From a virus (lineage: Duplodnaviria; Caudoviricetes): a DNA stretch of 59,703 nt. This document shows positions 12,693-29,578 of this stretch, in pieces (within the stretch, counting starts at the first letter, position 1; each line of letters begins with the position of its first letter). The notes under the pieces are model-generated. The model was given only the letters and a program-made list of their open reading frames with translations, searched no databases and had not been told where the DNA came from. Location: IMG/VR virus record IMGVR_UViG_3300036770_004625, positions 1 through 59,703 of that record; one strand, 5' to 3'. Made by a program: the position numbers and the translations under genes.

Positions 12693-12721
12693 TTGACAGG
12701 CACCTTCGCCTTGGGTATAGT
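12693..12721 (+). promoter_or_regulatory. Sigma70-type promoter for the replication operon
   Basis: TTGACA (12693-12698), 17 bp, TATAGT (12716-12721), in the divergent intergenic gap. Confidence 0.8.
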
Positions 12722-12753
12722 CTATCTCAGAAGTCATAAAGGAGAAAGACGGA

Positions 12754-13633: not shown

Positions 13634-13647
13634 AAAGGAAACTAATC

Positions 13648-14412
13648 ATGAATCAAGTAGCCAAAAAGCAGTCTAGCGATTTAGCCCTCGTCAACGAGAT
13701 GTTTGAGGCCGATGCATCCAATGGCATGGAAAACATGTCCCAGGAAGACCTCGCACTTCCGTTTCTCAAGGTGCTCTCACAACTGTCCCCGGAACTCGAG
13801 TCAGTCGAGGGCGCCAAGGCAGGCATGATCTTCAACACGGTCTCCAACCAGCTCTACGACGGGCAAAAAGGAATTCTTGTTCTGCCCTGCTATTACGAGC
13901 GCAAGTACATTGAATGGGCACCCCGTGGCCAAGGCAGTGGCGCACCAGTCAACGTCTACCCCGCAACAAGCGACGTCATGTCCCGCACGTTCCGCAAGCC
14001 AGGAGATAGCAAAGACTATCTGGAGAGCGGCAACTACATCGAGAACAGCGCACAGCACTACGTCTTGGTGCTCGATGAGAAGGGCGACCATCCTGCTCTG
14101 ATTGTAATGAAGGCCACACAGCTTAAAAAGTCACGCAAGTGGAACAGCATGATGATGACTGTCAAGATGAATGGCAAGAACGGTCCGTTCACGCCTCCGT
14201 CGTACAGTCAGGTTTATCGCTTGACCACGTCCAAGGAGTCCAATGACAAGGGCACTTGGTATGGTTGGGAAGTTGAGCGTGTCGGTCCTGTCGAAAACCA
14301 ATCTCAGTATTTAATGGCCAAGGGCTTTGCCGAATCCGTTAAGTCTGGGGATGTGCAGGTCAAGCACAGCGATGAGGCTGCCGAAGCTCCAAAGGCCCAC
14401 ACCGCATTCTAA
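13648..14412 (+). CDS. Putative ssDNA-binding protein
   Basis: DLALPFLKVL..LSPE, YIEW, SRKWN and GTWYGW motifs; directly upstream of the primase. Confidence 0.6.
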   Translation: MNQVAKKQSSDLALVNEMFEADASNGMENMSQEDLALPFLKVLSQLSPELESVEGAKAGMIFNTVSNQLYDGQKGILVLPCYYERKYIEWAPRGQGSGAPVNVYPATSDVMSRTFRKPGDSKDYLESGNYIENSAQHYVLVLDEKGDHPALIVMKATQLKKSRKWNSMMMTVKMNGKNGPFTPPSYSQVYRLTTSKESNDKGTWYGWEVERVGPVENQSQYLMAKGFAESVKSGDVQVKHSDEAAEAPKAHTAF

Positions 14413-14420
14413 ATGAGCTA

Positions 14421-14448
14421 GGGCCCGGTCCTTCGGGGTCGGGCCTTT
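14421..14448 (+). terminator. Stem-loop with cUUCGg tetraloop (weak terminator or RNA stabiliser)
   Basis: GGCCCGGTCC-TTCG-GGGTCGGGCC then TTT; short U tract. Confidence 0.6.
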
Positions 14449-14467
14449 CATACAGAAAGAGAAGCTC

Positions 14468-19373: not shown

Positions 19374-19403
19374 TGAGTCTCCTTCTCCTTACATGGGGGA
19401 TTG

Positions 19404-19436
19404 GTCACCGGGGGGATCCCCCCGGTGACATTTTTT
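19404..19436 (+). terminator. Intrinsic terminator after polA
   Basis: Perfect palindrome GTCACCGGGGGGATCCCCCCGGTGAC (19404-19429) followed by A and T6. Confidence 0.85.
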
Positions 19437-19447
19437 AGGAGAAAGCC

Positions 19448-19696
19448 ATGCTAAAGATCGACGGACACGACAACGCCATCCTCGGACCAGCCTTGGTCTG
19501 GGGCACCGACGGCAAGAGGACAGAAGTCCTCGTTTATGACGCCGAACTCATCCGAGCCAACCTCATGAGCGAGGGCATGAGCTCGGAAGAAGCCCGAGAA
19601 TTCATCGAATACAACATCGAAGGCGCCTTTGTAGGAGCCGACACGCCAATCCTGGTATGGACTCAGGACGAATGGTCGGACTGGGTTGACAGCTGA
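19448..19696 (+). CDS. Hypothetical protein (82 aa)
   Basis: AGGAG RBS; DG.D.AILG...EEAREFIEYNIEGAFVG..TP pattern seen in aquatic phages. Confidence 0.8.
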   Translation: MLKIDGHDNAILGPALVWGTDGKRTEVLVYDAELIRANLMSEGMSSEEAREFIEYNIEGAFVGADTPILVWTQDEWSDWVDS

Positions 19697-19715
19697 GTAA
19701 CCGGTATCCTATAAT
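19686..19715 (+). promoter_or_regulatory. Consensus sigma70 promoter, probably giving a leaderless transcript
   Basis: TTGACA (19686-19691), 18 bp, TATAAT (19710-19715); ATG 8 nt downstream with no SD. Confidence 0.75.
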
Positions 19716-19722
19716 CCTATAC

Positions 19723-19929
19723 ATGGACAAAACCAAATGGAAATCGGTCATCATTCAAGTAGCCACTCATGAAAAGATCAAGGATTTGGCGCACTTTCAG
19801 AAGTTGCCGATCAATCATGTCCTCGAGAGGTTGGTTGAGGAGGCGTGGAACAAGATCTACGGACCACGGACCGCTCCAAGTCCGTACTTGGACCCAGCGC
19901 CTAAGGGAGTTTTTCGCAGTAAGGCTTAG
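19723..19929 (+). CDS. Putative ribbon-helix-helix DNA-binding regulator
   Basis: KWKSVII strand followed by two amphipathic helices (THEKIKDLA, INHVLERLVEEAW). Confidence 0.6.
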   Translation: MDKTKWKSVIIQVATHEKIKDLAHFQKLPINHVLERLVEEAWNKIYGPRTAPSPYLDPAPKGVFRSKA

Positions 19930-19963
19930 CAGTAGATTTTTCAACAATCAGAAAGGAGAAAGT

Positions 19964-20011
19964 ATGTGGCCCTACGTTATTGCAGCAATTATCCTGGGAG
20001 CAATCCTATGA
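19964..20011 (+). CDS. Possible 15-aa hydrophobic peptide MWPYVIAAIILGAIL
   Basis: Strong AGAAAGGAG RBS; stop overlaps the next ATG (ATGA). Confidence 0.5.
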   Translation: MWPYVIAAIILGAIL

Positions 20012-20301
20012 AGCTGCTAACAGAAGAGCAAACGGAGAACGTCCAAGGCATGAAGTTTGCCAGTGCCATGGACGTTGCCAATTTGCAGTACTGGAAGAGT
20101 GTTGCTCGTCGGTATCGTCGTCAGCGCGATGAAGCTTTAGAGAGGGTTCATTTTCTGCGTAATAAGCTTTTGCAGGAGACGGGCCGTGCTTACGATGGGC
20201 ATGACTATCTGCGCCTTGTCATCAAGACCGCCTCCAAGCCGTCTTGGCGATACAGGCTTCTTTTTGCCATTGAGCGCCTGCTCAAAGTGAGGGGCAAATG
20301 A
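20008..20301 (+). CDS. Hypothetical protein (97 aa)
   Basis: GGGAG RBS; coupled to both neighbours. Confidence 0.6.
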   Translation: MKLLTEEQTENVQGMKFASAMDVANLQYWKSVARRYRRQRDEALERVHFLRNKLLQETGRAYDGHDYLRLVIKTASKPSWRYRLLFAIERLLKVRGK

Positions 20302-20465
20302 AAGAGCCTATGCACCCATCTGGCCTGCCAATGTCGCGTTGGAATTGGCCGTTCAAAACTGCGGAAGAACGAAAGCTTGTTGCCGCATGGTTCAAAAAAG
20401 CCGCCGTCCAAGAACGAGATTTAAACAAACCAGATCCCGCTAAATACGGGACAGCACCCTTTTAA
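20298..20465 (+). CDS. Hypothetical protein (55 aa, MKEPMHPSG...)
   Basis: ATGA coupling; fills the gap exactly; below the ORF-track size cutoff. Confidence 0.55.
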   Translation: MKEPMHPSGLPMSRWNWPFKTAEERKLVAAWFKKAAVQERDLNKPDPAKYGTAPF

Positions 20466-20476
20466 GGAGATTACCT

Positions 20477-20848
20477 ATGAAAACTAAAGTACAACCCAAA
20501 CGCCGTGGCCGTCCCCCTGGATCAAAGAATAAGACCACCGCTCGCCGTGGCCGCCCGCCAAAGTCGGCTACCCCGACCACCATCGATACGACCTTGGACC
20601 AACGCGCCGGACGTTACGGACTGTTCCTCGGTCAGGCCGAGATCTCTCAGAACTTCAAGCAGTTGGTCTACCACTACTTGGTTCACCGGGAAAAGACCCT
20701 GGACGTGGACCAAGCCGAGGCCCTCGAGATGATCGTCCACAAGATCGCCCGCATCATCAACGGCGATGCGGACTACTCCGACAGTTGGAGAGACATTGCA
20801 GGCTACGCCATGCTGATTAGCGATCGGCTCGAAGGCCGACCACGATGA
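20477..20848 (+). CDS. DUF6378-like protein with two N-terminal AT-hooks
   Basis: RRGRPP twice; L..R..RYG, KIARI and DSWRDIAGYA motifs. Confidence 0.75.
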   Translation: MKTKVQPKRRGRPPGSKNKTTARRGRPPKSATPTTIDTTLDQRAGRYGLFLGQAEISQNFKQLVYHYLVHREKTLDVDQAEALEMIVHKIARIINGDADYSDSWRDIAGYAMLISDRLEGRPR

Positions 20849-21117
20849 ACCCTAAAGAGCAAAAGAAGATCATGGATGTTCTCATCAGCATGAACGCTGA
20901 GAGCAGGAAGCTACACACCATGAAACAGCTTTCACTAAACTCGGTGAACTTCGCCATTGAGGCAGGCTTAGATCCTGCTGAGTCGCTGGTGGCCCTGGCC
21001 ACCACTGTCGCAGTCATCGGGAAGGTCTCTGAAATTCCCCTGCGCGAACTCGTCTCCGCAACCGTTAAATGCTATGAGGACATGTATGCAAACCCCAACC
21101 AACCAACAATGCAGTGA
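20845..21117 (+). CDS. Hypothetical protein (90 aa)
   Basis: ATGA coupling. Confidence 0.6.
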   Translation: MNPKEQKKIMDVLISMNAESRKLHTMKQLSLNSVNFAIEAGLDPAESLVALATTVAVIGKVSEIPLRELVSATVKCYEDMYANPNQPTMQ

Positions 21118-21130
21118 TATTGGAGGTGAC

Positions 21131-21301
21131 GTGGTCACCATCAACCAATCGGCCCGCCTCCTGCAAGAGGTCCTGGCCGAAGCCCACCCGAGCCAGGAAC
21201 AACTCAACGCGGCCGAAGAGCTGTGCCTAAAGATCCACCGCTCCACCTGCGCCATCCTCGTCTGGGCAGAACAAAAGAAAAAGGCTGTTGACAACGTGTA
21301 A
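21131..21301 (+). CDS. Hypothetical protein (56 aa, GTG start)
   Basis: GGAGGT RBS before GTG 21131. Confidence 0.5.
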   Translation: MVTINQSARLLQEVLAEAHPSQEQLNAAEELCLKIHRSTCAILVWAEQKKKAVDNV

Positions 21302-21316
21302 AACTACCCGTAGTAT
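21288..21316 (+). promoter_or_regulatory. Sigma70 promoter overlapping an ACTAC-N2-GTAGT palindrome
   Basis: TTGACA, 17 bp, TAGTAT; ACTACCCGTAGT at 21303-21314. Confidence 0.75.
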
Positions 21317-21347
21317 GAAGCTGTAGTACTTAATAAAGGAGAAAGAA

Positions 21348-21590
21348 ATGACGTTCCTCAGAGAGAAGTACCTCTTGCCTTGCGCCTTTGCCGCTGTGTT
21401 TCTTTGCGGCATGTTGGCCTCGGCATTCATTGGTGGGCTCATCGTCCACGATCCAACGCCCAAGGTCCTCGAAGCGTACAAGCGGGGCAAGCAGGACGCC
21501 CTGACGATCAAGCGCGGCAATACGGAGCTTGAGATGACGTGCGCCGCTTTGTGGCAGAGCAACCAGCCGTTCTTAGGAGAGCACAAATGA
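21348..21590 (+). CDS. Small membrane protein (80 aa)
   Basis: AAGGAG RBS; N-terminal hydrophobic helix. Confidence 0.7.
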   Translation: MTFLREKYLLPCAFAAVFLCGMLASAFIGGLIVHDPTPKVLEAYKRGKQDALTIKRGNTELEMTCAALWQSNQPFLGEHK

Positions 21591-21823
21591 GCCTAGACAC
21601 ACTAAAGCTCTCGCTCGACGGGAGAGAAGTGGTGGATGCGGAGTTGGCCGGATTAGATAGCGCCGACTACCCCGACTTTTGCGATGCGTACTTCGACAAA
21701 GCATTCTTTGCCGATACAGGCGAGGCCTTGGACGACGAACAACTCGACCGTCTTGCCGAACAAAACCCCGACGAACTACACGTCTTGGCCCATCGGACCA
21801 TTCGCTACGGAGGAAGAGGATGA
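21587..21823 (+). CDS. Small acidic protein (78 aa)
   Basis: AGGAG RBS, ATGA coupling; D..DYPDFCDAYF motif. Confidence 0.75.
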   Translation: MSLDTLKLSLDGREVVDAELAGLDSADYPDFCDAYFDKAFFADTGEALDDEQLDRLAEQNPDELHVLAHRTIRYGGRG

Positions 21824-22128
21824 CAAACGACGAAATTCTCATGCTGGTTGCCCAGGTCATGACCAGCGGCATCAAGCAAGAAGGAGCAAAGTTCACGCTC
21901 CCCGAATCAATGATCATCGAGCTCGTCCGACGGGCGCAGAAGGCAGAGCGTGAGGCGTGTGCGAAGGTGTGTGAGGAACTTGTGCTGGCTTACGCTGGAA
22001 ATGCCTCTGCTACCGCCAACCAATGTGCTGACGCAATCCGAGCAAGGGGGGATGAGGAAAGATTTTCGAAGGATTGGCAAGAAACCGTAGCCAGAGTAGA
22101 AGCCAAACTAAAGGAGAAGAACACATGA
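21820..22128 (+). CDS. Hypothetical protein with EREACAKVCE/CADAIRARG module
   Basis: ATGA coupling; ends EAKLKEKNT. Confidence 0.7.
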   Translation: MTNDEILMLVAQVMTSGIKQEGAKFTLPESMIIELVRRAQKAEREACAKVCEELVLAYAGNASATANQCADAIRARGDEERFSKDWQETVARVEAKLKEKNT

Positions 22129-22502
22129 CCAAAGAAGAGATCGCAGAGATTGTCCACGGGATGCCACAGGGCATGACCGCAGATGATTATTTGGTCGAGC
22201 TTGTGAGCCGAGCCGTCACCCCACTTGAACAACGGATCAAGCTCCTACGAGACGAAGTCGCATGGGCCGAAAACGGCTACACAAAACATAAATGGGTCGG
22301 GCTCACGGACCAAGAAATCACCGATCTCTACCTCCTGGCAGGAATCATCCCCTGGACAAAACATACCATCGGCCCCAATCCGTCTTTAGTTGGAGGCGTG
22401 TTCCTCACCCCTTTCGTAGAAGACGGAATGGACGGGGACGGCACTTGCCTGAGACAGTTTGCCCAATTGATCGAGGCCAAGCTGAAAGAGAAGAACACAT
22501 GA
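22125..22502 (+). CDS. Hypothetical protein with WVGLTD.EI module
   Basis: ATGA coupling; ends IEAKLKEKNT. Confidence 0.7.
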   Translation: MTKEEIAEIVHGMPQGMTADDYLVELVSRAVTPLEQRIKLLRDEVAWAENGYTKHKWVGLTDQEITDLYLLAGIIPWTKHTIGPNPSLVGGVFLTPFVEDGMDGDGTCLRQFAQLIEAKLKEKNT

Positions 22503-22515
22503 GGGGGACTACCAA

Positions 22516-22719
22516 ATGAGGTGCATCTACTGCGACGGGGAGGAAACAAAAGTGCTCGACACCCGCAAATTCCCGGACCGCGAACCTTGGATCACCCGAA
22601 CCCGCCGGTGCTACACCTGCCTTGAGCGCTTCAAAACCGTCGAAATCCCCGTCGGAGAACTCAAAACCAACTTCTTTGAGGACGAAAGCAATGAGATCGA
22701 AATCGATGACGATCAATAA
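22516..22719 (+). CDS. Stand-alone NrdR-like zinc-ribbon protein
   Basis: MRCIYC....TKVLDTR.....RTRRCYTCLERFKTVE matches the NrdR N-terminal pattern; no ATP-cone. Confidence 0.8.
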   Translation: MRCIYCDGEETKVLDTRKFPDREPWITRTRRCYTCLERFKTVEIPVGELKTNFFEDESNEIEIDDDQ

Positions 22720-23065
22720 AGCATTTGCCGCAATGTTTCTTGCCCTTGCACTAACCCCCACCGTATCCCAGGCCACGGTCTACGAAACAGGAAACCAACT
22801 GCTCAGAGACCTCGAAGATATAAACAAGACCGGCTTTGGCCCCTCCTACGCCCTGGGATACATCGTAGGGGCCGCAGACGCTTACGGCGGAGCATCCCTG
22901 TGCATCCCCGCCTCGGTTACGAAAGGACAGCTCAACGACGTCGTACACGCGTTCCTGAAACAAGAACCAGGGATCAGGCACCTACCGGCAGACGTGCTCG
23001 TGCTTGTAGCGCTCGGGAACCACTGGGCATGCCCGAAGGAAGCCAAGAAAAAAGGCAAGGTATGA
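22706..23065 (+). CDS. Rap1a-family immunity-like exported protein
   Basis: Signal peptide (..TPTVSQA); TGNQLL, GYIVGAAD, CIP..VT.GQL, P..RHLPA and WACP motifs. Confidence 0.8.
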   Translation: MTINKAFAAMFLALALTPTVSQATVYETGNQLLRDLEDINKTGFGPSYALGYIVGAADAYGGASLCIPASVTKGQLNDVVHAFLKQEPGIRHLPADVLVLVALGNHWACPKEAKKKGKV

Positions 23066-23067
23066 GA

Positions 23068-23130
23068 GGTGTAGAAGGCGCAAAGAGGTGTAGAGAAAGG
23101 GGTGTAGAAGAGGTGTAGAGAAGGTGTAGA
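23068..23130 (+). repeat. Five iteron-like GGTGTAGA direct repeats
   Basis: Copies at 23068, 23087, 23101, 23112 and 23123. Confidence 0.9.
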
Positions 23131-23231
23131 AACGTAATGCCCAGGCAGGATAAGGGCTGCAAGCGAAGTGAGCGGTTATTTATGGATCAAGGAACACGGA
23201 CCAGGGGCCAGAGGAGAGAGGAAAATTGCCT

Positions 23232-23476
23232 TATACGCTGAAAATTCAAAAAAAGTTTTTTATGATCACCAAAAATCAAAATTTGACGTAATTGGTGTAA
23301 TAGACGTAATTTCTATTTGTTTTCAATGAGTTATAAATTACAGCGAATTACAGTAGTGTTTTGACGTAATTACTGATGTTACAATTAACCATGCTTTTTA
23401 ACCTTTCGTACTACAAACGTCCAGGAATTCATAAAAAAAGAAAAGTTTTTTTTTTTTTTTGAATTTTCAGCGTATA
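23232..23476. other. AT-rich non-coding core bracketed by a perfect 23-bp inverted repeat (candidate origin or packaging site)
   Basis: TATACGCTGAAAATTCAAAAAAA (23232-23254) and its reverse complement (23454-23476); three GACGTAATT copies inside. Confidence 0.65.
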
Positions 23477-23586
23477 TGGTGAGGGCGGAGGGGCGAAAAG
23501 TTACACCTGTGAAGGAGAGCCGTAATGTTATTTGTCGTAATTTTGGGAGTGTTCTTTGTGATGCTTTTTCTGGAGGATCGATTGAA

Positions 23587-24267
23587 ATGAGCTCGACAGT
23601 CCGAAAGAAGCAGGCGCAAGCTTTGTCCAGGGTGGCGCAGTATGACCCTGCGATACATAAACGGGGGCCGAAGCAAAGGAAGGTCCTGACCGAGCGGGAA
23701 GTTAAATTTGTAGAAATATGGTTGTCTTCTGCTGGACAACTCAGCATGCGGGAGGCGGCGATCGAGGCAGGCTATCCGGCGGCATCTGCCCATAGCAGGG
23801 CCACAGAACTGACCAATCCGGTACGCAAGCCCCACGTAGTGGCCTACATCCAAAAGAGGCAGAGGGAGCTCGGGGAGAAGTACGGGACGAACTTTGAGCG
23901 CCACATGAAGGATCTGCTGATGATTCGGGATAAGGCGATCGAGGCCGGGGCTTGGGCGGCGGCAGTCCAGGCGGAGTACCGGAGGGGGCAAGCCTTGGGC
24001 AATATCTATGTGGATCGCAAAGAAATCCGTCATGGGACGATTGACTCGATGAGCAAAGAGGAGGTGCAGAAGAAGCTGGAGGAGTTGCGGCGCCTATACT
24101 CCCCTCGGAAAGAGGTCATCGACGTGGAGGACACGTCTTTGGATGATGCGATAGAGATGGAAAGAGAAGCTGATCACACTACAGGGGAGGAATTTGATGA
24201 AGCCGGAGACAGCGTTTTATCGGAGGATGAAGGCGGGGATGAAGAAGACGAGGATTACCCGCGTTGA
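23587..24267 (+). CDS. terS: Terminase small subunit
   Basis: LTEREVKFVE...AAIEAGY HTH pattern, coiled coil, acidic tail; ATG 23587 after GGAGG. Confidence 0.75.
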   Translation: MSSTVRKKQAQALSRVAQYDPAIHKRGPKQRKVLTEREVKFVEIWLSSAGQLSMREAAIEAGYPAASAHSRATELTNPVRKPHVVAYIQKRQRELGEKYGTNFERHMKDLLMIRDKAIEAGAWAAAVQAEYRRGQALGNIYVDRKEIRHGTIDSMSKEEVQKKLEELRRLYSPRKEVIDVEDTSLDDAIEMEREADHTTGEEFDEAGDSVLSEDEGGDEEDEDYPR

Positions 24268-24586
24268 GTCCTGGGTGAACCTGGGAATTCCGGACTGCAT
24301 CCTGTCCCTGGAGAAGCGCTTTTTGTTGGTCGAACTGAAGGTGGCGGCGCCGAGCGGTCGAATAAAGTTGAGCGCCCATCAGGTTGCTTTTCATGAGGCG
24401 CATCGGGACTATCCCTGCTTTATCTTGGCAAGCTTTGGTGAGGCAAGGAAAAGGGAGATCTGGCTTTATCCGTCGCACAGGGCGAAGGATTTAGCGGTGG
24501 GCGTATGCCAGCCGGACATAAGGATTCCGGAGAACGCCGAGGGGTGGCAGAAGCTGGAGGAAGCATTCGGGTTTTCCCTAGATTGA
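24197..24586 (+). CDS. Holliday-junction resolvase/VRR-NUC-like nuclease
   Basis: E..FY, RVE....GIPD, VELK and LSAHQVAFH motifs. Confidence 0.8.
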   Translation: MKPETAFYRRMKAGMKKTRITRVESWVNLGIPDCILSLEKRFLLVELKVAAPSGRIKLSAHQVAFHEAHRDYPCFILASFGEARKREIWLYPSHRAKDLAVGVCQPDIRIPENAEGWQKLEEAFGFSLD

Positions 24587-24611
24587 CTACCGGTAGTAAT
24601 GATGCTATAGT
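24583..24611 (+). promoter_or_regulatory. Early promoter with ACTACCGGTAGT palindrome over the -35
   Basis: TTGACT, 17 bp, TG-extended TATAGT; palindrome at 24586-24597. Confidence 0.8.
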
Positions 24612-24644
24612 GTGGGTGTAGTCAACTCATACAGGAGAATTACC

Positions 24645-24851
24645 ATGGCAAGAAAATGGCTTGTTGGCACCAACACCGCAAAGGTCGATGGTCCCTCATT
24701 CAAAACGAAGCGCGAGGCGATCGAGTATGGTCGCCGATATATCAACGGCATTTTTATGGTTTGGAAGGCCGATCTGCACGAAGGGCAGAAGGCAGAGAAC
24801 GGCGCTCGTCTTCGGGCATGGCTCCGGGATACGGCGGAGGCCTCAGCATGA
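24645..24851 (+). CDS. Early hypothetical protein (68 aa)
   Basis: ATACAGGAGA leader; FKTKREA motif. Confidence 0.75.
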   Translation: MARKWLVGTNTAKVDGPSFKTKREAIEYGRRYINGIFMVWKADLHEGQKAENGARLRAWLRDTAEASA

Positions 24852-25162
24852 GCGCCAAAGAGCTTTATCGCTTGCTGGACAATTACGCCGGAGCATATGA
24901 GACGGTCGAATCGTTCGATGGGGTTCGCATCATTCGCTTTGAAGTGGAGGAAGACGCGGGGTTTGGCCTTTTGCCCCTCGAGAGGGCCTCAGATGAGCAG
25001 GTCATCGCTTATGCGGATTCGCAGGGATATCAGCTTACGCTGGAAGACGTGCAGGAAATCCGGAGCGGTTGTTTAGCCTCGCCTTTGTGGGGAATGTTAA
25101 ATAATAAGGATGAGACCGTATCGCGAGCGGTGAATGATTTTCTCGATGCGTTCGAGAGGTAA
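24848..25162 (+). CDS. Early acidic hypothetical protein (104 aa)
   Basis: GGAGG RBS, ATGA coupling. Confidence 0.7.
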   Translation: MSAKELYRLLDNYAGAYETVESFDGVRIIRFEVEEDAGFGLLPLERASDEQVIAYADSQGYQLTLEDVQEIRSGCLASPLWGMLNNKDETVSRAVNDFLDAFER

Positions 25163-25165
25163 GGC

Positions 25166-25194
25166 TTGCAAGAATAAACTACCCGTAGTAATCT
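25166..25194 (+). promoter_or_regulatory. Early promoter with ACTACCCGTAGT palindrome
   Basis: TTGCAA, 17 bp, TAATCT; palindrome at 25178-25189. Confidence 0.7.
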
Positions 25195-25224
25195 AGTGGC
25201 TCAACTCATACAGGAGAAATTAGC

Positions 25225-25911
25225 ATGCTAAAAACGGTCGCAATATCAAGCAATAAAAAGACGGGCCCAATCGCTGTCACCTATCGATCGGGAGCGGCGG
25301 ACGTGTTCGGCACGTGCCCCAAAACCTGCGGGCTCTTGCCATGCGGTAAAGCTGGGGCGGCGGAGATTGACTCGGAATATATCCGGGCTGTGGTCGATGC
25401 GGTCCCCCGCCAGGGTAAGGCGTGGACGTACTCTCATTTCCCGGCCGATCAATTGCCTCTGCCCGAAGAGGGCAAGACGGTTATCAATGCATCATGCGAT
25501 TCGATGGACGAGGCCGTTCGTGCGTTTTCTTTGTCCCGTCCGGCGGTGGTGGCCCTGCCGCGCCAGGACTGGAAGAGCACTGAATACAAGGGTGTTCAGT
25601 TTGTTCGCTGTCCGGCAGAATTGTCCGATTCGTTCGCATGTTCCGATTGCGGCGGCGGTAACCCGATATGCGCGCAACCCCATCGGGATTACGTAGTGGC
25701 CTTTTTTGCCCATGGTCCGAGCGCGAAGAGGGTAGGGACTGGCACGGGGGGCTGTTATGGTTCGAGCGGGCCGGTGGCGATTCAGTGGCGCAACACTAAA
25801 GACAAGGGGGCCGCCAATGATGCCGAGGCCGTCCGCCAATTTGCGTGTTCGCTCCCGCCGGGTTCGTTGCTCCGCCATCATGTCGTGGGAGACGTCGGGG
25901 CCGCACTGTGA
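25225..25911 (+). CDS. Cys-rich, probably metal-binding phage protein (228 aa)
   Basis: S.NKKTGPI, TCPKTC, WTYSH, INAS, CPA....C..C....C, F.AHG, LRHHVVGD. Confidence 0.75.
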   Translation: MLKTVAISSNKKTGPIAVTYRSGAADVFGTCPKTCGLLPCGKAGAAEIDSEYIRAVVDAVPRQGKAWTYSHFPADQLPLPEEGKTVINASCDSMDEAVRAFSLSRPAVVALPRQDWKSTEYKGVQFVRCPAELSDSFACSDCGGGNPICAQPHRDYVVAFFAHGPSAKRVGTGTGGCYGSSGPVAIQWRNTKDKGAANDAEAVRQFACSLPPGSLLRHHVVGDVGAAL

Positions 25912-25959
25912 TAATGCTCTTATTGGTGTTTATCCTAATGTGGGTTTTGCATGATTGGC

Positions 25960-25988
25960 TTGACTAGCGTCCCGGTATCCTATAAATT
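25960..25988 (+). promoter_or_regulatory. Early promoter of the DUF932 gene
   Basis: TTGACT, 17 bp, TAAATT; the same TAAATTATCG occurs at 26998. Confidence 0.65.
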
Positions 25989-26042
25989 ATCGACATGGCT
26001 CGAATGGTTCGGGCCTGCAACCTCAATACAGGAGATTTAAAA

Positions 26043-26876
26043 ATGACCGCTCACCGCTCAATCTACAACCAGCACGGCATCCCCGTCGATCAACTTGCCG
26101 CCACGGTTCCCTCTGTTTTCGCTCAACAGCCCTTTTCTGGCGTGTCCGCCCGGTACGGGTTCGTCCCGACAATTGACGTTGTGGAAGACCTCCGCGCTTC
26201 CGGGTTTAAGGTTGTGCAGGCTGGCCAGACCCTCACCCGCGTCGCGGATAAAAGGGACTTTACCCGGCACGTGCTCCGCTTCCGTCCCGATTACGCGCCC
26301 ACCGTTGCGGGCTCGCTCCCGGAGGTTGTGCTCATGAATTCTCATGATGGCTCATCCGGGTTTAAATTGTGGGCGGGGCTCTTCCGCATGGTTTGCGCGA
26401 ATGGGCTCATTGTTTGCACGTCCACCATGGGGGCCGTGTCCGTCCCTCACCGCTCGAATGCTGTCGAGGCCGTCCGCTCCCGTTCATTCGATTTTCTCTC
26501 CCGTGTCGATAACCTCTCCGAGACTGTCGCCCGGTATGAGTCCCGGCATATGACCGACGAAGAGGCCTTTTCTTTTGCCGAGATTGGCGCGCAAATCCGG
26601 TGGGGCTCCGAGCGGCCTGCCGGTTTGAATGCCCGAGACCTGCTCATGGCTCGCCGGTTCGAGGATGCAAGGCAAAACCTGTGGACAGTTCTCAACACCA
26701 TTCAAGAAAACCTCACTCGCGGCGGAGTTAACCTCACCCGCGCCAATCGCCGCTCGAGCACTCGGGGCATGCGATCGGTGCAGGACGATACCCGCATGAA
26801 CGTCCGGCTGTGGGCGGCTGCCGATGAATTTTTATCGGGGGATGTTGTGGACGTCGAGGCTGTCGAGGTAGCATAG
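26043..26876 (+). CDS. DUF932-family protein
   Basis: PSVFA, S.RY.FVPT, H.LRFR, NSHDGSS, GLFRMVCANGLI, R.ED..LW...N.IQENL.RGG, N..LW; ATG 26043 after ATACAGGAGA. Confidence 0.9.
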   Translation: MTAHRSIYNQHGIPVDQLAATVPSVFAQQPFSGVSARYGFVPTIDVVEDLRASGFKVVQAGQTLTRVADKRDFTRHVLRFRPDYAPTVAGSLPEVVLMNSHDGSSGFKLWAGLFRMVCANGLIVCTSTMGAVSVPHRSNAVEAVRSRSFDFLSRVDNLSETVARYESRHMTDEEAFSFAEIGAQIRWGSERPAGLNARDLLMARRFEDARQNLWTVLNTIQENLTRGGVNLTRANRRSSTRGMRSVQDDTRMNVRLWAAADEFLSGDVVDVEAVEVA

Positions 26877-27037
26877 TCTCAGGCTATCGGATAGTCCTAT
26901 GGGATAGTTATAAACTAAGCCCCATGGTCCGAGGGCCGTGGGGCTTGAAACTTGAGGCAAGGGCCGTGGGGCCCTTGCATTGATTGCCGATAATTGATAA
27001 ATTATCGGTTCGTTCAATCAATACAGGAGAATGCACC
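26877..27037 (+). promoter_or_regulatory. Hairpin-promoter element E1 (divergent copy)
   Basis: GATAGTTATAAA; hairpins at about 26917-26946 and 26957-26978; TTGCAT-17-TAAATT with the -10 inside the CCGATAATT/AATTATCGG inverted repeat; ATACAGGAGA. Confidence 0.7.
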
Positions 27038-27316
27038 ATGCAACATGATCAAAGACACGGCGGCCCGTATGATCGGGGCCGCGCGGACTCTTACTATCGG
27101 CGGCCATTCGCGCCGCATTATTTCGTCGGCGATACCTATTCGAGCCCAAGAGTCGCCGCCGCCAATATGTCGGCGGCGGAGGTTGCGGCCTATGCTCGAG
27201 GGTTCGCGGACAATGAGCAGTTCGGGGATTTTAAGGACTGGGATTCACCCTATGCCCATGTCTCTCGAGACATGGGGGAGGATGGGGAGGGCTCTATCGA
27301 GACGGCGTCTCGATAG
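27038..27316 (+). CDS. Early hypothetical protein (92 aa)
   Basis: RHGGPYDRGRADSYYRR...PHY and GDFKDW motifs; ATACAGGAGA leader. Confidence 0.8.
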   Translation: MQHDQRHGGPYDRGRADSYYRRPFAPHYFVGDTYSSPRVAAANMSAAEVAAYARGFADNEQFGDFKDWDSPYAHVSRDMGEDGEGSIETASR

Positions 27317-27403
27317 TTAAAAAGTAATGGACGGGCCTAGGCCCTGCCGGTAATGTGAACATTACCGGCAGGGTGCCGGTAACCCTTAATACAGGAGAAA
27401 ATC
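27294..27403 (+). promoter_or_regulatory. Hairpin-promoter element E2
   Basis: CTATCGAGAC-GGC-GTCTCGATAG, TTAAAAAGTAATGGAC, TGGACG-17-TAATGT, 15-bp inverted repeat 27342-27373, ATACAGGAGA. Confidence 0.85.
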
Positions 27404-27838
27404 ATGGGCAATAGAGCCGTTATTACGTGGGGCACCGAAGGGTCTGAATCGGTGGGTGTTTATTTGCACTGGAACGGTGGCCGCGCGTCAGTGCGGGCTT
27501 TCCTGGACACGTGTAAGGCCCGAGGCTACCGGTCTCCGGTAGCCGATCCGTCGTATGCCATGGCTGGACTGGTGGCCGTGGTCCAAGAGTTTTTTGGCGC
27601 CACTGGGTTATCCGTTGGCGTCGACGTGATAAACCGCATGGACTGCGACAACATGGACAACGGGGTTTATCAGGTGGGCGAGGGTTGGCAAATTGTTGAC
27701 CGGTGGGGCGAGGGCTCGCAGTCGGTCGAGCTGACCATGGCCGCCATGCATGGCCGCGAGCTCGAGCAGTATGAGAGCATCATGGCCCAACTGGCGCGAG
27801 CCAGGGAACCGGCAGCCATCGTGTTTGAGACGGTCTAA
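27404..27838 (+). CDS. Early hypothetical protein, MG.RA.I/YLHWNG type (144 aa)
   Basis: MGNRAVI, VYLHWNGG and DNGVY motifs. Confidence 0.8.
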   Translation: MGNRAVITWGTEGSESVGVYLHWNGGRASVRAFLDTCKARGYRSPVADPSYAMAGLVAVVQEFFGATGLSVGVDVINRMDCDNMDNGVYQVGEGWQIVDRWGEGSQSVELTMAAMHGRELEQYESIMAQLARAREPAAIVFETV

Positions 27839-27840
27839 GG

Positions 27841-27955
27841 GACTATCGGGGCGCGAGCCCCGATAGTTATAAAGTAATGGACCGGGGCAGACCGCGCCGG
27901 TAATGTGTCACTTAACCCCGGCGCGGTGCTGGGGCCAATACAGGAGAATGACCAA
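27841..27955 (+). promoter_or_regulatory. Hairpin-promoter element E3
   Basis: ACTATCGGGGC-GCGA-GCCCCGATAGT, TATAAAGTAATGGAC, TGGACC-17-TAATGT, ACCGCGCCGG/CCGGCGCGGT, ATACAGGAGA. Confidence 0.85.
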
Positions 27956-28321
27956 ATGAAAGCTTATTTAATCGACCCTCAGGCCCAGCAAATCACCCAG
28001 GTGGAATACTCTGGCAATTACGAAGAGATTTATACGCATATCAACGCGCCGCTGTTCACCACGGCCACATTCAATAACGCGGGCGACACCTGCTTCGTCG
28101 ATGACGAGGGGCTCTTCAATGGTGACAATTGCTTCTTCGTCATCGCCGGTTATCCCCAGCCCCTGGCTGGGCGGGGCTTGGTCCTTGGCTGTAATGACGA
28201 AGGCGAGAGCACGGAGCCCAGCATTACATTGAACCAGCTGCGGGCCCTGGTGGACTGGGTCCCACGGTTTATGGTGGCGGCCGTGGCCGAGGCGCTCGAG
28301 GAGGAATACCGGCGGGGCTAG
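27956..28321 (+). CDS. DUF3846-like early protein (121 aa)
   Basis: MKAYLIDP, FVDDEGL and LAGRGLVLG...EGE motifs. Confidence 0.7.
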   Translation: MKAYLIDPQAQQITQVEYSGNYEEIYTHINAPLFTTATFNNAGDTCFVDDEGLFNGDNCFFVIAGYPQPLAGRGLVLGCNDEGESTEPSITLNQLRALVDWVPRFMVAAVAEALEEEYRRG

Positions 28322-28433
28322 ACTATCGGGGCCTTGGCCCCGATAGTTATAAAGTAATGGACGGCAGTTGACCGCGCCGGTAAAGTCTTACTTATCCCCG
28401 GCGCGGTGCTGGGGGCATACAGGAGAAAAGACC
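28321..28433 (+). promoter_or_regulatory. Hairpin-promoter element E4 (near copy of E3, 480 bp downstream)
   Basis: ACTATCGGGGCC-TT-GGCCCCGATAGT, TATAAAGTAATGGAC, TGGACG-17-TAAAGT, ACCGCGCCGG/CCGGCGCGGT, ATACAGGAGA. Confidence 0.85.
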
Positions 28434-28883
28434 ATGTTGCAAGATCTAGTGAATGAAGACACCCGTGGCCCTGGCTTTCCCGCCAGCTACAAGTACGACG
28501 GCCTGTTGAGAGAACTAGCGGCACTGCTCGTGCCCCATATCCTCGAGCATGTTGATGTGCAGAGGCTGTTCGCCGGTGCGTCCCAGCTGGTCACTCGTGA
28601 GACGGTCGAAGAGATCGTCCAGGCGAAGATGGACGAACTGGGCCCGATCGACAAGGACATGATCCGCGAGGTCTGCGAAGAGGTCGTCGATGCGTCAGAC
28701 ATCGACGATAAGATCAACGACTGGTACGTGAACAACTTCGACATCTCCGACTATGAATCGGAGATCAAGGACATGGTCGATGTGGACGATGCGGTCGAGA
28801 CCCACCTCAACACTTACCTGCACGACGAAGTGGTGTCGTGCATCCAGGGCCTCAAGTTTAATGTCGAGGTTTCGTCCAGGTAG
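28434..28883 (+). CDS. Highly acidic early protein (149 aa)
   Basis: About 34 D/E vs 12 K/R by hand count; ATACAGGAGA leader. Confidence 0.8.
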   Translation: MLQDLVNEDTRGPGFPASYKYDGLLRELAALLVPHILEHVDVQRLFAGASQLVTRETVEEIVQAKMDELGPIDKDMIREVCEEVVDASDIDDKINDWYVNNFDISDYESEIKDMVDVDDAVETHLNTYLHDEVVSCIQGLKFNVEVSSR

Positions 28884-28957
28884 TTGACAGCCACACCGAT
28901 ATCTGCCAAGATATCGGTGTAGTACATCTCAACCGCAGTCATACAGGAGAAATCAAC
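28884..28957 (+). promoter_or_regulatory. Hairpin-promoter element E5
   Basis: TTGACA at 28884; 12-bp stem ACACCGATATCT-GCCA-AGATATCGGTGT over the -10 position; ATACAGGAGA. Confidence 0.7.
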
Positions 28958-29230
28958 ATGCAGATCTACTCACTCAACATCGAGCGTCAATCCAGCTACT
29001 CTGACTTCAAACCCAACCAGCTGGTGTGCAAGGTTCAGCTGCGCGACATCGAGGGCAACTCTCAGATCGTAACCCTGGACGATGCGACCCTGGTCGCGAT
29101 CCTCGAGGTGATCCGCGAGGCCACCGTCGCCAAGTGCAAGGCCAACGCCGCCGTCGCCAAAGCCGCGATCGAATCCGCGATCGCGGCCCCAGCCCTGGAG
29201 GACGCCACCACGCTCAAGCTGGAGGACTGA
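28958..29230 (+). CDS. Early hypothetical protein (90 aa)
   Basis: ATACAGGAGA leader; last gene of the island. Confidence 0.8.
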   Translation: MQIYSLNIERQSSYSDFKPNQLVCKVQLRDIEGNSQIVTLDDATLVAILEVIREATVAKCKANAAVAKAAIESAIAAPALEDATTLKLED

Positions 29231-29239
29231 CTCTCCTGT

Positions 29240-29370
29240 CTGGCGCGTACCACGCGCCAGTCTTCCCGTCCAATTGCATTTTGCAATTGGACGGGGGGAA
29301 GTGATAGGCAATGCCTATCACTCCCAAACATCTCCCACAAAGGGTGGAGGCGGGGGTGGGCGGGCCCGCC
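29240..29370. repeat. Three back-to-back perfect hairpins with 3-nt loops, plus a GC palindrome
   Basis: 29240-29260 (9 bp), 29265-29295 (14 bp), 29300-29322 (10 bp); GGCGGGCCCGCC at 29359-29370. Confidence 0.9.
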
Positions 29371-29578
29371 TGGAGTCCCTTGAGAGTTGGTTGTGTTCCT
29401 TCTGTTCTGTCTGACTGCTTCCCACCTTTTGGCCCCGTCTCTCCTGCTTTGCCCCTTTAAACTCAGTTTTAGCCAGCCAGCCAACGAACGAAAACTTGGC
29501 AATTTCAAAACACCCCCGGTATCATACAAACACTTTTCCCACAAAAATTTTTGCAAAAAATTTAAACCTGAGGCTGCT

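What the first reader, a model, noticed from the sequence alone, without database searches (positions are those of the whole stretch)
26877..28957. Array of single-gene cassettes, each headed by a covarying hairpin-promoter element
Seen: five consecutive genes are each preceded by an element of about 75-160 bp. E2-E4 share hairpin 1 (CTATCG..CGATAG), then TTA(T/A)AAAGTAATGGAC, a TGGAC(G/C)-17-TAA(T/A)GT promoter-like pair, a second perfect inverted repeat that contains or encloses the -10, and ATACAGGAGA. Stems differ in sequence but keep pairing (CTATCGAGAC/GTCTCGATAG vs CTATCGGGGC/GCCCCGATAG; CCCTGCCGG/CCGGCAGGG vs ACCGCGCCGG/CCGGCGCGGT). E1 and E5 place unrelated inverted repeats over the same -10 position. 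Inference: the left arm of hairpin 2 lies upstream of the predicted start site, so the structure may act in DNA (cruciform or single-stranded) or in read-through RNA. Known analogues are Frpo ssDNA promoters of plasmid leading regions, N4 hairpin promoters and T4-type promoter stem-loops that shuffle genes, but no phage RNA polymerase or integrase was recognised here. Candidate structure-gated early expression and gene-shuffling platform.
Basis: partly seen in the sequence, partly recalled or inferred. Interest (0 to 1): 0.85.

Follow-up and report, generated by a model that had tools for sequence, protein, structure and literature searches.

The report
Phage early-gene cassettes with terminator-promoter heads
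A 60-kb environmental phage carries a row of small early genes, each behind its own stem-loop-plus-promoter "head", and related phages have gained, lost and swapped genes at these heads, as is known for the PeSL cassettes of T4-type phages.

Summary
The window is a complete 59.7-kb phage genome. Eight heads (24583-28957), not five, end in an exact ATACAGGAGA leader. E1-E5 fold far better than shuffles (z -3.3 to -6.6); the three upstream heads do not.

Each head has a stem-loop, an A-rich tract, a sigma70-like -35/-10 and a Shine-Dalgarno leader. That is the published anatomy of PeSL (promoter-early stem-loop) cassettes of T4-type phages, whose stem-loops also sit on or around the -10.

Relatives keep the pairing through compensatory changes: 3 of 10 pairs in hairpin 1, 6 of 13 in the E5-type repeat. 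Contigs from other samples show four gene orders between g1 and g4, with breakpoints in the conserved head blocks. The same head type precedes different genes, and the same gene carries up to four head types.

G.U wobbles and GNRA loops on the + strand suggest the stems act in read-through RNA as insulators, not as cruciforms or ssDNA promoters. No T7-type RNA polymerase domain, integrase or plasmid similarity was found.

Verdict: a new member of a known kind, in a non-T4 phage. The gene-shuffling reading is supported; the structure-gated DNA promoter reading is not. No transcript data exist.

The parts
24583..24644 (+). Head 1: TTGACT-17-TATAGT promoter-like pair and the ATACAGGAGA leader. 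No notable stem-loop.
   Evidence: z -0.44
24645..25162 (+). Two overlapping small genes (24645-24851 and 24848-25162), no known family. A relative carries two extra genes, one NinX-like, inserted at their junction.
25163..25224 (+). Head 2: TTGCAA-17-TAATCT and the leader. No stem-loop.
   Evidence: z +1.30
25225..25911 (+). Cassette gene, DUF7227.
   Evidence: E 1.2e-32
25912..26042 (+). Head 3: TTGACT-17-TAAATT, an 8-bp hairpin downstream of the -10 (25997-26015, one G.U pair; a relative has two), and the leader.
26043..26876 (+). Cassette gene, DUF932. The true start is at 26043, behind the leader.
   Evidence: (E 1.8e-36)
26877..27037 (+). E1, a composite head. It has a degenerate E2-E4-type head (26882-26921); hairpin 26917-26946; hairpin 26957-26978, which overlaps the -35 TTGCAT (26975-26980); the -10 TAAATT (26998-27003), which lies inside the repeat 26987-26995/27000-27008; and the leader at 27021-27030.
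   Evidence: D6; z -6.55
27038..27316 (+). g1, 92 aa, no known family.
27294..27403 (+). E2. Hairpin 1 (27294-27316) ends in the g1 stop codon. It is followed by an A-rich tract, the -35 TGGACG (27328-27333) and the -10 TAATGT (27351-27356), which lies in the left arm of hairpin 2 (27342-27356/27359-27373). A third arm (27374-27382) repeats part of the left arm and can pair with the middle arm (27362-27370). The leader is at 27389-27398.
   Evidence: I11; z -6.22; z -3.18
27404..27838 (+). g2, 144 aa, a variable cassette gene. It is absent from contigs of 3 of the 4 runs laid, and a 192-aa gene takes its place in L023.
27839..27955 (+). E3: hairpin 1 (27842-27867), the -35 TGGACC (27878-27883), the -10 TAATGT (27901-27906) in the 17-nt loop of repeat 27891-27900/27918-27927, and the leader at 27938-27947.
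   Evidence: D1; z -4.29
27956..28321 (+). g3, 121 aa, DUF3846, a variable cassette gene absent from L003, L004 and L005.
   Evidence: (E 1.6e-7)
28322..28433 (+). E4, 86% identical to E3 over 97 nt: hairpin 1 (28322-28347), the -35 TGGACG (28358-28363), the -10 TAAAGT (28381-28386), repeat 28371-28380/28398-28407, and the leader at 28417-28426.
   Evidence: D1; z -3.30
28434..28883 (+). g4, 149 aa, acidic, no known family.
28884..28957 (+). E5: the -35 TTGACA (28884-28889) directly after the g4 stop codon, repeat 28893-28904/28909-28920 over the spacer and the -10 CAAGAT (28907-28912), and the leader at 28941-28950.
   Evidence: (z -4.55)
28958..29230 (+). g5, 90 aa, the last gene of the array.
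29232..29326 (+). End of the array: the reverse complement of the leader core (29232-29239), then three strong hairpins. L004, L023 and L034 have one hairpin and a canonical U-tract terminator at this place.
   Evidence: (I19)

Best explanation
The region 24.6-29.3 kb is the hyperplastic early-gene region of a lytic-type dsDNA phage. Almost every gene there is a separate transcription unit.

Each unit has a composite regulatory head. Its parts are:
- an optional stem-loop just after the upstream stop codon (hairpin 1);
- an A-rich tract that resembles an UP element;
- a host sigma70-type -35 (TTGACA, or the weaker TGGAC) and a -10;
- a second stem-loop laid over the spacer, the -10 and the start site;
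- an almost invariant leader, ATACAGGAGA(A), that carries the Shine-Dalgarno sequence.

This is the anatomy of the PeSL cassettes of T4-type phages.

Shown here:
- the anatomy itself;
- selection for pairing, through compensatory changes;
- confinement to the early half of the genome;
- four gene orders between g1 and g4 among related genomes, with breakpoints in the conserved blocks of the heads.

Inferred:
- The host RNA polymerase fires each head early in infection.
- The stem-loops form in + strand RNA that reads through from the cassette upstream. There they stop, pause or mark that RNA for processing, so each cassette is insulated from its neighbours.
- The repeated conserved blocks (the leader and the A-rich/-35 block) are short homologies at which ordinary phage recombination deletes, inserts and swaps cassettes. 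No dedicated recombinase is needed.
- In E2 the phage's own transcript would start inside hairpin 2 and fold a smaller hairpin at its 5' end from the middle and third arms. That could stabilise the mRNA.
For: Anatomy:
- Searches show the layout.
- The leader is exact 8 times, only on the + strand, between 24629 and 28941.
- Full TTGAC[AT] promoter-like pairs lie on the + strand at 12693-28884. The only others lie inside late genes and have weak -10 boxes.

Structure: E1-E5 fold at z -3.3 to -6.6, with 0 of 200 shuffles as good.

Pairing is kept through change:
- Hairpin 1, 10 distinct sequences: 96% of cells paired, 3 of 10 pairs changed on both sides, and 0 of 500 shuffles reach the score.
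- L099 and L100 also change the otherwise constant fifth pair on both sides.
- E5-type repeat, 7 sequences: 93.4% paired, 6 of 13 pairs changed on both sides, 0 of 500 shuffles.
- The E2 stem reads TAATGT/ACATTA here and TAAGGT/ACCTTA in L004. L023 holds the one-sided intermediate.
- The E4-type stem reads CCGG/CCGG here and CCAG/CTGG in L031.

Position: of 58 distinct heads, 43 received a promoter call. In 24 of those a perfect repeat of 8 bp or more overlaps or encloses the called -10.

RNA and + strand:
- In 40 distinct hairpins the internal mismatches are 13 G.T, 4 A.C and 17 other.
- Of the 24 four-base loops, 8 are GNRA on the + strand and 0 on the - strand.

Shuffling:
- L003, L004 and L005 lack g3 and carry extra genes.
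- L023 has another gene in place of g2, and the E2-type head there precedes g3.
- Contigs of runs X4, X6 and X7 give no depth over g2 but join across it. One joint shares the 11 letters of the leader on both sides.
- The g4 family has 3 head types and the g3 family has 4.
- The head model finds 18 + strand hits at E <= 1e-5, all in this phage lineage. It finds none in the 13 loci that carry g2 homologues in other phages.

Published parallel: the PeSL paper describes an AT-rich tract, sigma70 boxes, a stem-loop in five positions including over the -10, G-T pairs, terminator activity, and crossovers between the SD and the -10 (PMC2839356, section 14 and passages).
Against: - No transcript data exist, so neither the start sites nor termination are shown.
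- None of the E1-E5 stem-loops is followed by a U tract. The terminator scan lists none of them on the + strand, yet it does find a canonical terminator at 19404-19429. They are therefore not ordinary intrinsic terminators.
- The same scan does not list E1-E5 as promoters. E2-E4 match only 7 of 12 consensus positions. Promoter-like sites in 19-31 kb are no commoner than in shuffles (7 against 7.4).
- One relative's head (L034, at 2480) keeps a 16-bp stem but has no convincing -10.
- The + strand folds better in 32 of 45 heads, but coding windows lean the same way (56 of 89). That measure is weak.
- Heads are related by descent and by conversion between neighbours, so the covariation counts are not independent events.
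- All relatives are metagenome contigs. Repeated heads could seed chimeric assemblies, although the same orders recur in separate samples and studies.
- In a distant relative (L006) the variable hairpin lies wholly downstream of the -10 in all 3 heads seen. That fits a 5'-end role better than an insulator role.
Confidence: 0.6

Rival explanations
1. The stem-loops are RNA processing and stability elements, not terminators. The array is also read as long transcripts, which an RNase III-type enzyme cuts at the intergenic hairpins, as in the T7 early region (recalled). The cut leaves a protective 3' hairpin on the upstream message and a defined 5' end before the leader.
For: - No U tracts follow the stems.
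- The + strand carries G.U pairs and GNRA loops.
- The stems are long, 10-15 bp, and are extended by flanking pairs in E2-E4.
- The hairpins lie directly upstream of each leader.
Against: - Every head also carries its own promoter-like pair, which a processed operon would not need.
- Most stems are shorter than the roughly two helical turns usual for RNase III sites (recalled).
- No cleavage data exist.
Confidence: 0.14
2. The inverted repeats over the -10 are operators. A dimeric phage or host DNA-binding protein sits on them and shuts the early promoters off, as anti-CRISPR-associated repressors do at acr promoters.
For: - The repeats are centred at a fixed place. In 7 aligned E5-type heads the centre falls at the upstream edge of the -10.
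- Many share a GATAT core.
- The abstract of PMC13551039 (seen only in the listing) says such repressors bind DNA within acr promoters.
Against: - The window alone holds four unrelated repeat sequences (E1, E2, E3/E4, E5), and relatives add at least six more. One regulator cannot read them all.
- What is conserved is the pairing, including in the flanks that vary.
- The shared AT-rich core is explained by the -10 lying in one arm.
- The arm spacing varies from 2 to 20 nt.
- No helix-turn-helix gene lies inside the cassettes.
Confidence: 0.1
3. The promoter calls for E2-E4 are wrong and transcription starts upstream of hairpin 2. The stem-loops are then 5'-UTR elements of each gene's own mRNA, acting as stabilisers or translational switches.
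For: - In L006 (3 of the 3 heads seen), in L034 (2 heads), in L031 at 1342 and in head 3 of the window, the hairpin lies downstream of the -10.
- The E2-E4 boxes are weak.
Against: - In E1, E5 and all TTGACA heads the -35, the 17-nt spacer and the -10 are clear, and the left arm lies in the spacer.
- Across variants the -10 of E2-E4 keeps T, A and the final T: TAATGT, TAAGGT, TAAAGT, TAAACT and TAGAAT.
- The TATAAA-like stretch upstream is replaced by a plain A run in L034, so it is not itself a -10.
Confidence: 0.08
4. One reading: the repeats act in DNA. They extrude as cruciforms, or fold in single-stranded DNA, to switch the promoter on or off, like Frpo or the N4 early promoters.
For: - E2, E5 and hairpin 1 are perfect palindromes with 3-4 nt centres, which could extrude under supercoiling.
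- The cargo includes DUF932 and DUF3846. From memory these are common on conjugative elements, but a text search found neither name in the papers listed.
Against: - The -35 is outside the repeat in E1, E3, E4 and E5, so a folded strand would not rebuild a whole promoter.
- E3 and E4 have 17-nt spacers, and relatives have up to 20.
- Mismatches and loops are asymmetric between the strands.
- The phage is a dsDNA phage with a terminase.
- No match to PF00940 (the T7-type single-subunit RNA polymerase domain) was found.
- blastn of the 2,081-nt region against 72,556 plasmids found nothing.
Confidence: 0.05

Closest known systems
PeSL (promoter-early stem-loop) cassettes of T4-type phages (PMC2839356: section 14 and passages read; PMC4122927: abstract read)
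   Same: - A stop codon, an AT-rich tract, sigma70-like -35/-10 boxes, a stable stem-loop and an SD with the start codon.
- The stem-loop position varies and most often lies between the boxes or over the -10.
- G-T pairs occur in the stems.
- The elements are clustered among small genes of unknown function.
- Indels and replacements between close relatives are bounded by the motifs.
- Crossovers fall in the AT-rich tract or between the -10 and the SD.
   Different: - The host phage is an unrelated 59.7-kb genome with a family A polymerase and Pam3-like replication genes. No T4 core was seen.
- Many heads carry two stem-loops.
- One head type has three arms that can pair in two ways.
- The leader is invariant over 10-11 nt.
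- Promoter activity, terminator activity and mini-circles are untested here.
Morons of lambdoid phages (recalled, no paper read)
   Same: Single genes with their own promoter and terminator, set between other genes and present or absent among relatives.
   Different: Morons are scattered insertions in late operons of temperate phages and are expressed from the prophage. This is a tandem array with shared heads in a phage without an integrase.
Start-associated sequences (SAS) and extended SAS of Cluster K mycobacteriophages (PMC3203893, abstract and passages read)
   Same: - A conserved asymmetric motif that includes the SD lies just upstream of the start codons of a subset of genes in the non-structural half.
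- About half of them have an inverted repeat with a variable spacer just upstream.
- The function there is unknown.
   Different: - The ESAS repeats share a 17-bp consensus within a genome. Here the repeat sequences differ from head to head and only the pairing is kept.
- No promoter boxes are described inside ESAS.
- The motif sequences are unrelated.
Frpo single-strand promoters of plasmid leading regions (PMC11541004, passages read)
   Same: Promoter boxes combined with secondary structure ahead of early-acting small genes.
   Different: In Frpo a long fold pairs the -35, the -10 and the UP element with complementary stretches on DNA that enters as a single strand. Here only the spacer and -10 are paired, the DNA is packaged double-stranded, and no plasmid similarity was found.
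N4 early hairpin promoters (recalled)
   Same: A small hairpin at the promoter.
   Different: N4 promoters need the giant virion RNA polymerase and a short stem with a 3-nt loop. No such gene was recognised, and the stems here are 9-16 bp.

Membership tests
PeSL cassettes (T4-type phages) | A sigma70-like -35 and -10 with an AT-rich tract upstream of the -35. | tested here: met
   TTGACA/TTGACT/TTGCAT or TGGAC, a 16-18 nt spacer, and a -10 that keeps T, A and the final T. An A-rich block lies before TGGAC. This is sequence-level only. The consensus scan lists heads 1 and 3 but not E1-E5.
PeSL cassettes (T4-type phages) | A stable stem-loop in or next to the promoter, at a variable position: upstream in the AT-rich tract, between the boxes, over a box, or just downstream of the -10. 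| tested here: met
   Hairpin 1 lies upstream of the A-rich tract. Hairpin 2 lies over the spacer and -10. Head 3 and some relatives have it downstream of the -10.
PeSL cassettes (T4-type phages) | An SD and the start codon of the next gene at the 3' end. | tested here: met
   The ATACAGGAGA leader lies 6-9 nt before the ATG in 8 of 8 heads.
PeSL cassettes (T4-type phages) | Clustered in a hyperplastic region of small, mostly unknown genes. | tested here: met
   There are 9 genes of 68-277 aa. Three have only DUF families and six have none.
PeSL cassettes (T4-type phages) | Indels and replacements between close relatives are bounded by the motifs. | tested here: met
   Four gene orders between g1 and g4. 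One joint lies within the shared leader (11 letters common to both sides). The head-by-gene table is mixed.
PeSL cassettes (T4-type phages) | Measured promoter and terminator activity, and mini-circles from recombination between heads. | not testable with these tools
   No RNA run holds the stretch. No joint that skips the 480-bp E3-E4 unit was listed. The supplementary figure with the published assays could not be read.
PeSL cassettes (T4-type phages) | The host genome is a T4-type myovirus. | tested here: not met
   The genome is 59.7 kb, with a family A polymerase, an AEP primase and Pam3-like genes. This is a feature of where PeSLs were described, not of how they work.
Frpo / ssi single-strand promoters | The fold pairs both the -35 and the -10 with complementary stretches. 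| tested here: not met
   The -35 is unpaired or outside the repeat in E1, E3, E4 and E5. In E3 and E4 the -10 lies in the loop.
Frpo / ssi single-strand promoters | Sequence similarity to known Frpo, and residence on a conjugative T-strand. | tested here: not met
   blastn of 26877-28957 against 72,556 plasmids found no match. The genome encodes terminase subunits and virion genes.
N4-type hairpin promoters | A virion RNA polymerase that reads them. | tested here: inconclusive
   The large ORFs gave no RNA polymerase family. The PF00940 six-frame search found nothing, but its control genomes did not ring either. A very divergent enzyme cannot be excluded.
Intrinsic (rho-independent) terminators | A GC-rich hairpin followed by a U tract. 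| tested here: not met
   None of the 18 terminator-like sites is an E1-E5 stem-loop on the + strand. After the stems come A-rich or GC-rich stretches.
Cluster K SAS/ESAS | Inverted repeats that share one consensus within a genome. | tested here: not met
   There are four unrelated repeat sequences in the window alone.

The most novel reading that the evidence does not exclude
The heads may tell a cassette's own transcript from a neighbour's. In the three-arm heads (E2 here, conserved in L004 and L023 with a wobble-compatible change, and L100 at 4737), RNA arriving from upstream contains the left arm and folds the long left-plus-middle hairpin, which stops it or marks it for processing. RNA started at the head's own promoter lacks the left arm and folds the middle-plus-right hairpin at its very 5' end, which protects it. 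The invariant ATACAGGAGAA leader, together with its reverse complement placed right after the last gene of the array, would then be a common handle for coordinated translation or shut-off of all early cassettes.
Probability: 0.15. Interest if true: 0.65.

Novelty: new member of a known kind. Interest (0 to 1): 0.42.

Why it matters
PeSL-type cassettes have been described only in T4-like myoviruses. My one text search for the term returned papers on T4-like phages plus one passing mention in a paper on haloarchaeal viruses (listing only).

Finding the same design in an unrelated 60-kb environmental phage lineage suggests convergent or widespread use of composite terminator-promoter heads. These heads act as insulation for accessory early genes and as the linkers at which such genes are exchanged. 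In this lineage four gene orders are visible across independent metagenomes. A distant GC-rich relative keeps the architecture with entirely different sequences.

The array is a compact natural set of roughly 100-nt insulator, promoter and RBS parts. It also marks small unknown early genes (DUF932, DUF3846, DUF7227, an acidic 149-aa protein) as candidates for host-takeover or counter-defence functions.

Tried and rejected
- RNA evidence: no RNA holder was listed for 24500-29400, so nothing can be said about expression.
- Rfam: only two sub-threshold miRNA-model hits on a palindrome at 29257-29304.
- blastn of 24500-29400 against 50,697 phage records: two short matches of 2-3% coverage. Against plasmids: none.
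- Protein atlas look-ups of g2 and g4 gave only unnamed or weak clusters with scores of 0.90 or less. The cargo functions stay unknown.
- I guessed that ORF 24194-24586 is a VRR-NUC-like nuclease. Pfam gave no family at E <= 0.01, so I dropped the guess.
- The PF00940 search found nothing, but its controls did not ring, so it proves little. PF00589 found nothing, with controls ringing in 14 of 14.
- Strand test by folding energy: heads favour the + strand 32 to 12, but coding windows do too (56 to 33). I rejected it as a strong argument.
- 5'-hairpin idea for all heads: only E2 is clear (z -3.18, 0 of 200 shuffles). E3 and E4 give z about -1. E1 and E5 have none.
- The E3xE4 480-bp deletion or circle was not among the 10 joints listed.
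- The D-type head was not found next to g2 homologues in other phage groups.
- The supplementary files of the PeSL papers, which hold the promoter and terminator assay figure and the motif tables, could not be seen and may bear on the comparison.
- My automated promoter caller required A at position 2 of the -10. It therefore missed the TCTAAT heads and E1. The 15 'no promoter call' heads include such cases.

Full report
**What the window is.** The 59,703-base window is the whole record. Its last 126 bases repeat bases 4-129, and CheckV rates it 99% complete. It is a tailed-phage genome read almost entirely on the + strand.
- The replication block (12.7-19.4 kb) holds Pam3-like genes, an AEP primase, a UvrD-type helicase and a family A DNA polymerase.
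- A run of small genes follows.
- An AT-rich stretch lies at 23.07-23.48 kb.
- A protein with a small-terminase-like domain is at 23476.
- The array in question comes next.
- The large terminase is at 30687 by its sequence, followed by virion genes.
- No match to PF00940 (the T7-type single-subunit RNA polymerase domain) and no tyrosine integrase was found. The polymerase search lacked a working positive control.

**Checking the observation.**
- The 12-mer AAAGTAATGGAC is exact three times, only in E2-E4.
- ATACAGGAGA has 16 matches at up to one mismatch against 2.2 expected (0 of 100 shuffles reach 16). The eight exact copies are all on the + strand between 24629 and 28941, each 6-9 nt before an ATG.
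- E1-E5 fold with z-scores of -6.55, -6.22, -4.29, -3.30 and -4.55 (0 of 200 shuffles as good). The three heads further upstream do not (z -0.44, +1.30, +0.10).

The array therefore starts at 24583 and has eight heads and nine genes. Only the last five heads carry the strong stem-loops. E3 and E4 are near-copies (97 nt, 86% identical, 480 nt apart). Inside the window the covariation rests on E2 against E3/E4 alone.

**The promoters.**
- Heads 1, 3, E1 and E5 have good sigma70-type boxes: TTGACT-17-TATAGT, TTGACT-17-TAAATT, TTGCAT-17-TAAATT and TTGACA-17-CAAGAT.
- E2-E4 have the weaker TGGAC(G/C)-17-TAA(T/A)GT, preceded by an A-rich block.
- Relatives show TTGGAC at the same place and -10 variants TAAGGT, TAAACT, TAGGAT and TAGAAT. 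All keep the first T, the A and the last T.
- The upstream TATAAA-like stretch is a plain A run in L034, so it is not itself a -10.
- Full TTGAC[AT] pairs occur on the + strand from 12693 to 28884, the early half. The only others lie inside late genes with weak -10 boxes.
- Against this reading, the consensus scan lists only heads 1 and 3 and finds no excess of promoter-like sites in 19-31 kb (7 against 7.4). All promoter statements are sequence-level inference.

**Relatives.** Pattern and protein scans gave three kinds of relative.
- Close relatives: L003, L004, L005 and L023, 75-93% nucleotide identity across the array.
- More distant ones whose DUF932 protein is 56-66% identical: L026-L036, L099-L101.
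- A GC-rich relative, L006.

The ATACAGGAGA leader is kept throughout the first two groups. L006 has the same plan with other sequences. In each of 3 heads it has a conserved promoter block, then a variable hairpin just after the -10, then its own conserved leader.

**Pairing is under selection.**
- Hairpin 1 (10 distinct sequences): 96% of cells pair, 3 of 10 pairs change on both sides, 6 never vary, and 0 of 500 shuffles reach the covariation score.
- L099 and L100 additionally flip the fifth pair on both sides.
- The E5-type repeat (7 sequences): 93.4% paired, 6 of 13 pairs changed on both sides, 0 of 500 shuffles.
- The E2 stem has TAATGT/ACATTA here and TAAGGT/ACCTTA in L004. L023 has the one-sided intermediate with one mismatch.
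- The E4-type stem changes CCGG/CCGG to CCAG/CTGG in L031.
- At least ten unrelated stem sequences occupy the same place between the -35 and the leader.
- Of 58 distinct heads, 43 received a promoter call from my simple caller. In 24 of those a perfect repeat of 8 bp or more overlaps or encloses the called -10.
- These heads are related by descent, so the counts are not independent events.

**RNA or DNA?**
- In 40 distinct hairpins the internal non-Watson-Crick positions are 13 G.T, 4 A.C and 17 other. Of 24 four-base loops, 8 are GNRA on the + strand and none on the - strand; five of the eight are copies of one GAGA loop.
- The + strand folds better than the - strand in 32 of 45 heads. Coding windows lean the same way (56 of 89), so this adds little.
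- The -35 lies outside the repeat in E1, E3, E4 and E5. E3 and E4 have a 17-nt spacer between their arms.

Together this favours a role in + strand RNA. Given the called start sites, that RNA must come from the cassette upstream. Cruciform or single-strand promoter models fit poorly. The stems are not canonical terminators, because no U tract follows them. The genome does use canonical terminators elsewhere, at 19404 and at the end of the array in relatives.

**Cassette exchange.** Four gene orders exist between g1 and g4:

| Order | Where seen |
|---|---|
| g1-g2-g3-g4 | window; run X2 covers g2 |
| g1-small ORF-g2-g4 | L003, L004, L005 |
| g1-other 192-aa gene-g3-g4 | L023 |
| g1-g3-g4 | contigs of X4 and X7 |

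- In X4, X6 and X7 the depth over 27452-27779 is zero, yet contigs join across the gap. One joint (27387 to 27937) shares the 11 letters of the leader on both sides. Another replaces 548 bases by 194 others.
- L004 also has two extra genes at 24851, one of them NinX-like.
- The E2-type head precedes g2 here and in L004, but g3 in L023.
- The g4 family has three head types and the g3 family has four.
- The covariance model of the E2-E4 head finds 18 + strand hits at E <= 1e-5. All are in this lineage, and none is in the 13 loci with g2 homologues from other phage groups.
- The predicted 480-bp E3-E4 deletion was not seen.
- Caveat: all of this rests on metagenome contigs. The same orders recur in separate samples.

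**Comparison with what is known.** The PeSL paper (PMC2839356; section 14 and passages read) describes composite motifs in T4-type phages. They consist of an AT-rich tract, sigma70 boxes, an SD and a stem-loop. The stem-loop may lie upstream, between the boxes, over either box or just after the -10. It contains G-T pairs, and one tested stem-loop reduced reporter expression about as strongly as the rrnB T1 terminator. Recombination between these motifs explains indels and yields mini-circles, with crossovers in the AT-rich tract or between the -10 and the SD. Every sequence-level feature of that description is met here. The host phage is not T4-like, and the activities are untested. Cluster K SAS/ESAS (PMC3203893) resemble the leader-plus-repeat layout, but their repeats share a consensus. 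Frpo (PMC11541004) and the N4 promoters fail defining features.

**An extra feature.** In E2 a third arm (27374-27382) repeats the core of the left arm. The middle arm can therefore pair upstream (15 bp) or downstream (9 bp, 3-nt loop). The predicted own transcript folds the downstream hairpin at its 5' end (z -3.18, 0 of 200). L004 and L023 keep that arm with an A-to-G change that gives a U.G pair, and L100 at 4737 has the same three-arm layout. E3 and E4 are not significant on this test, and E1 and E5 have no such hairpin. This is the basis of the novel reading. It is not established.

**Verdict.** The finding is real and well delimited, and larger than reported. It is best read as a PeSL-like array of insulated early-gene cassettes whose shared heads serve as exchange points. 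The DNA-structure-gated promoter part does not. It is a new member of a known kind and of moderate interest.

Noticed in passing
window 23068-23479: Five GGTGTAGA repeats lie within 63 nt (23068-23130). An AT-rich stretch follows, with three GACGTAAT(T) copies and a 26-nt inverted repeat (23229-23254/23454-23479, 96% complementary, 199 nt apart). It sits just upstream of the small-terminase-like gene and looks like an origin, packaging or control region.
   Followed up: partly
window 29232-29326; L004 7338-7400; L023 4238-4300; L034 3787-3850: Directly after the stop codon of the last array gene lies the reverse complement of the leader core (TCTCCTGT here and in L034/L035; TCTCCTGC in L004 and L023). 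Hairpins follow. The relatives end with a canonical U-tract terminator. The window instead has three strong hairpins without a U tract.
   Followed up: partly
L006 3380-3500, 4188-4290, 5857-6001: A GC-rich (65%) relative keeps the same synteny (small-terminase-like gene, DUF7227, DUF932, g2, large terminase) and the same head plan, but with unrelated sequences. Each head has a conserved promoter block ending in TAAAAT, a variable hairpin right after it, and a conserved AGAAAGCGAGAAAG leader that is not a typical SD.
   Followed up: partly
window 22622-23065: A 147-aa protein matches Rap1a (PF18602, E 1.1e-13), the family of immunity proteins against type VI secretion effectors. This is unexpected in a phage.
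   Followed up: no
window 51078-55232: A 1,384-aa protein has five stretches of the glycine-rich domain PF21722 (E 1.8e-99) and matches phrog_2295 of unknown function.
   Followed up: no
L007-L022: Homologues of g2 (37-57% identity) occur on viral contigs of 16 to 352 kb with quite different GC content and ordinary SD sequences. None has this head. g2 is therefore a widely travelled accessory gene.
   Followed up: partly
window 1-129 and 59578-59703: The record's ends overlap by 126 identical bases. This indicates a circular assembly or a terminal repeat, although the collection labels the record linear.
   Followed up: partly
window 21288-21316, 24583-24611, 25167-25195: Three promoters share a CTACC(C/G)GTAGTA motif, placed at different distances from the -35. 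Two others (19686 and 25960) share CCGGTATCCTATAA. The early promoters therefore fall into several sequence families.
   Followed up: no
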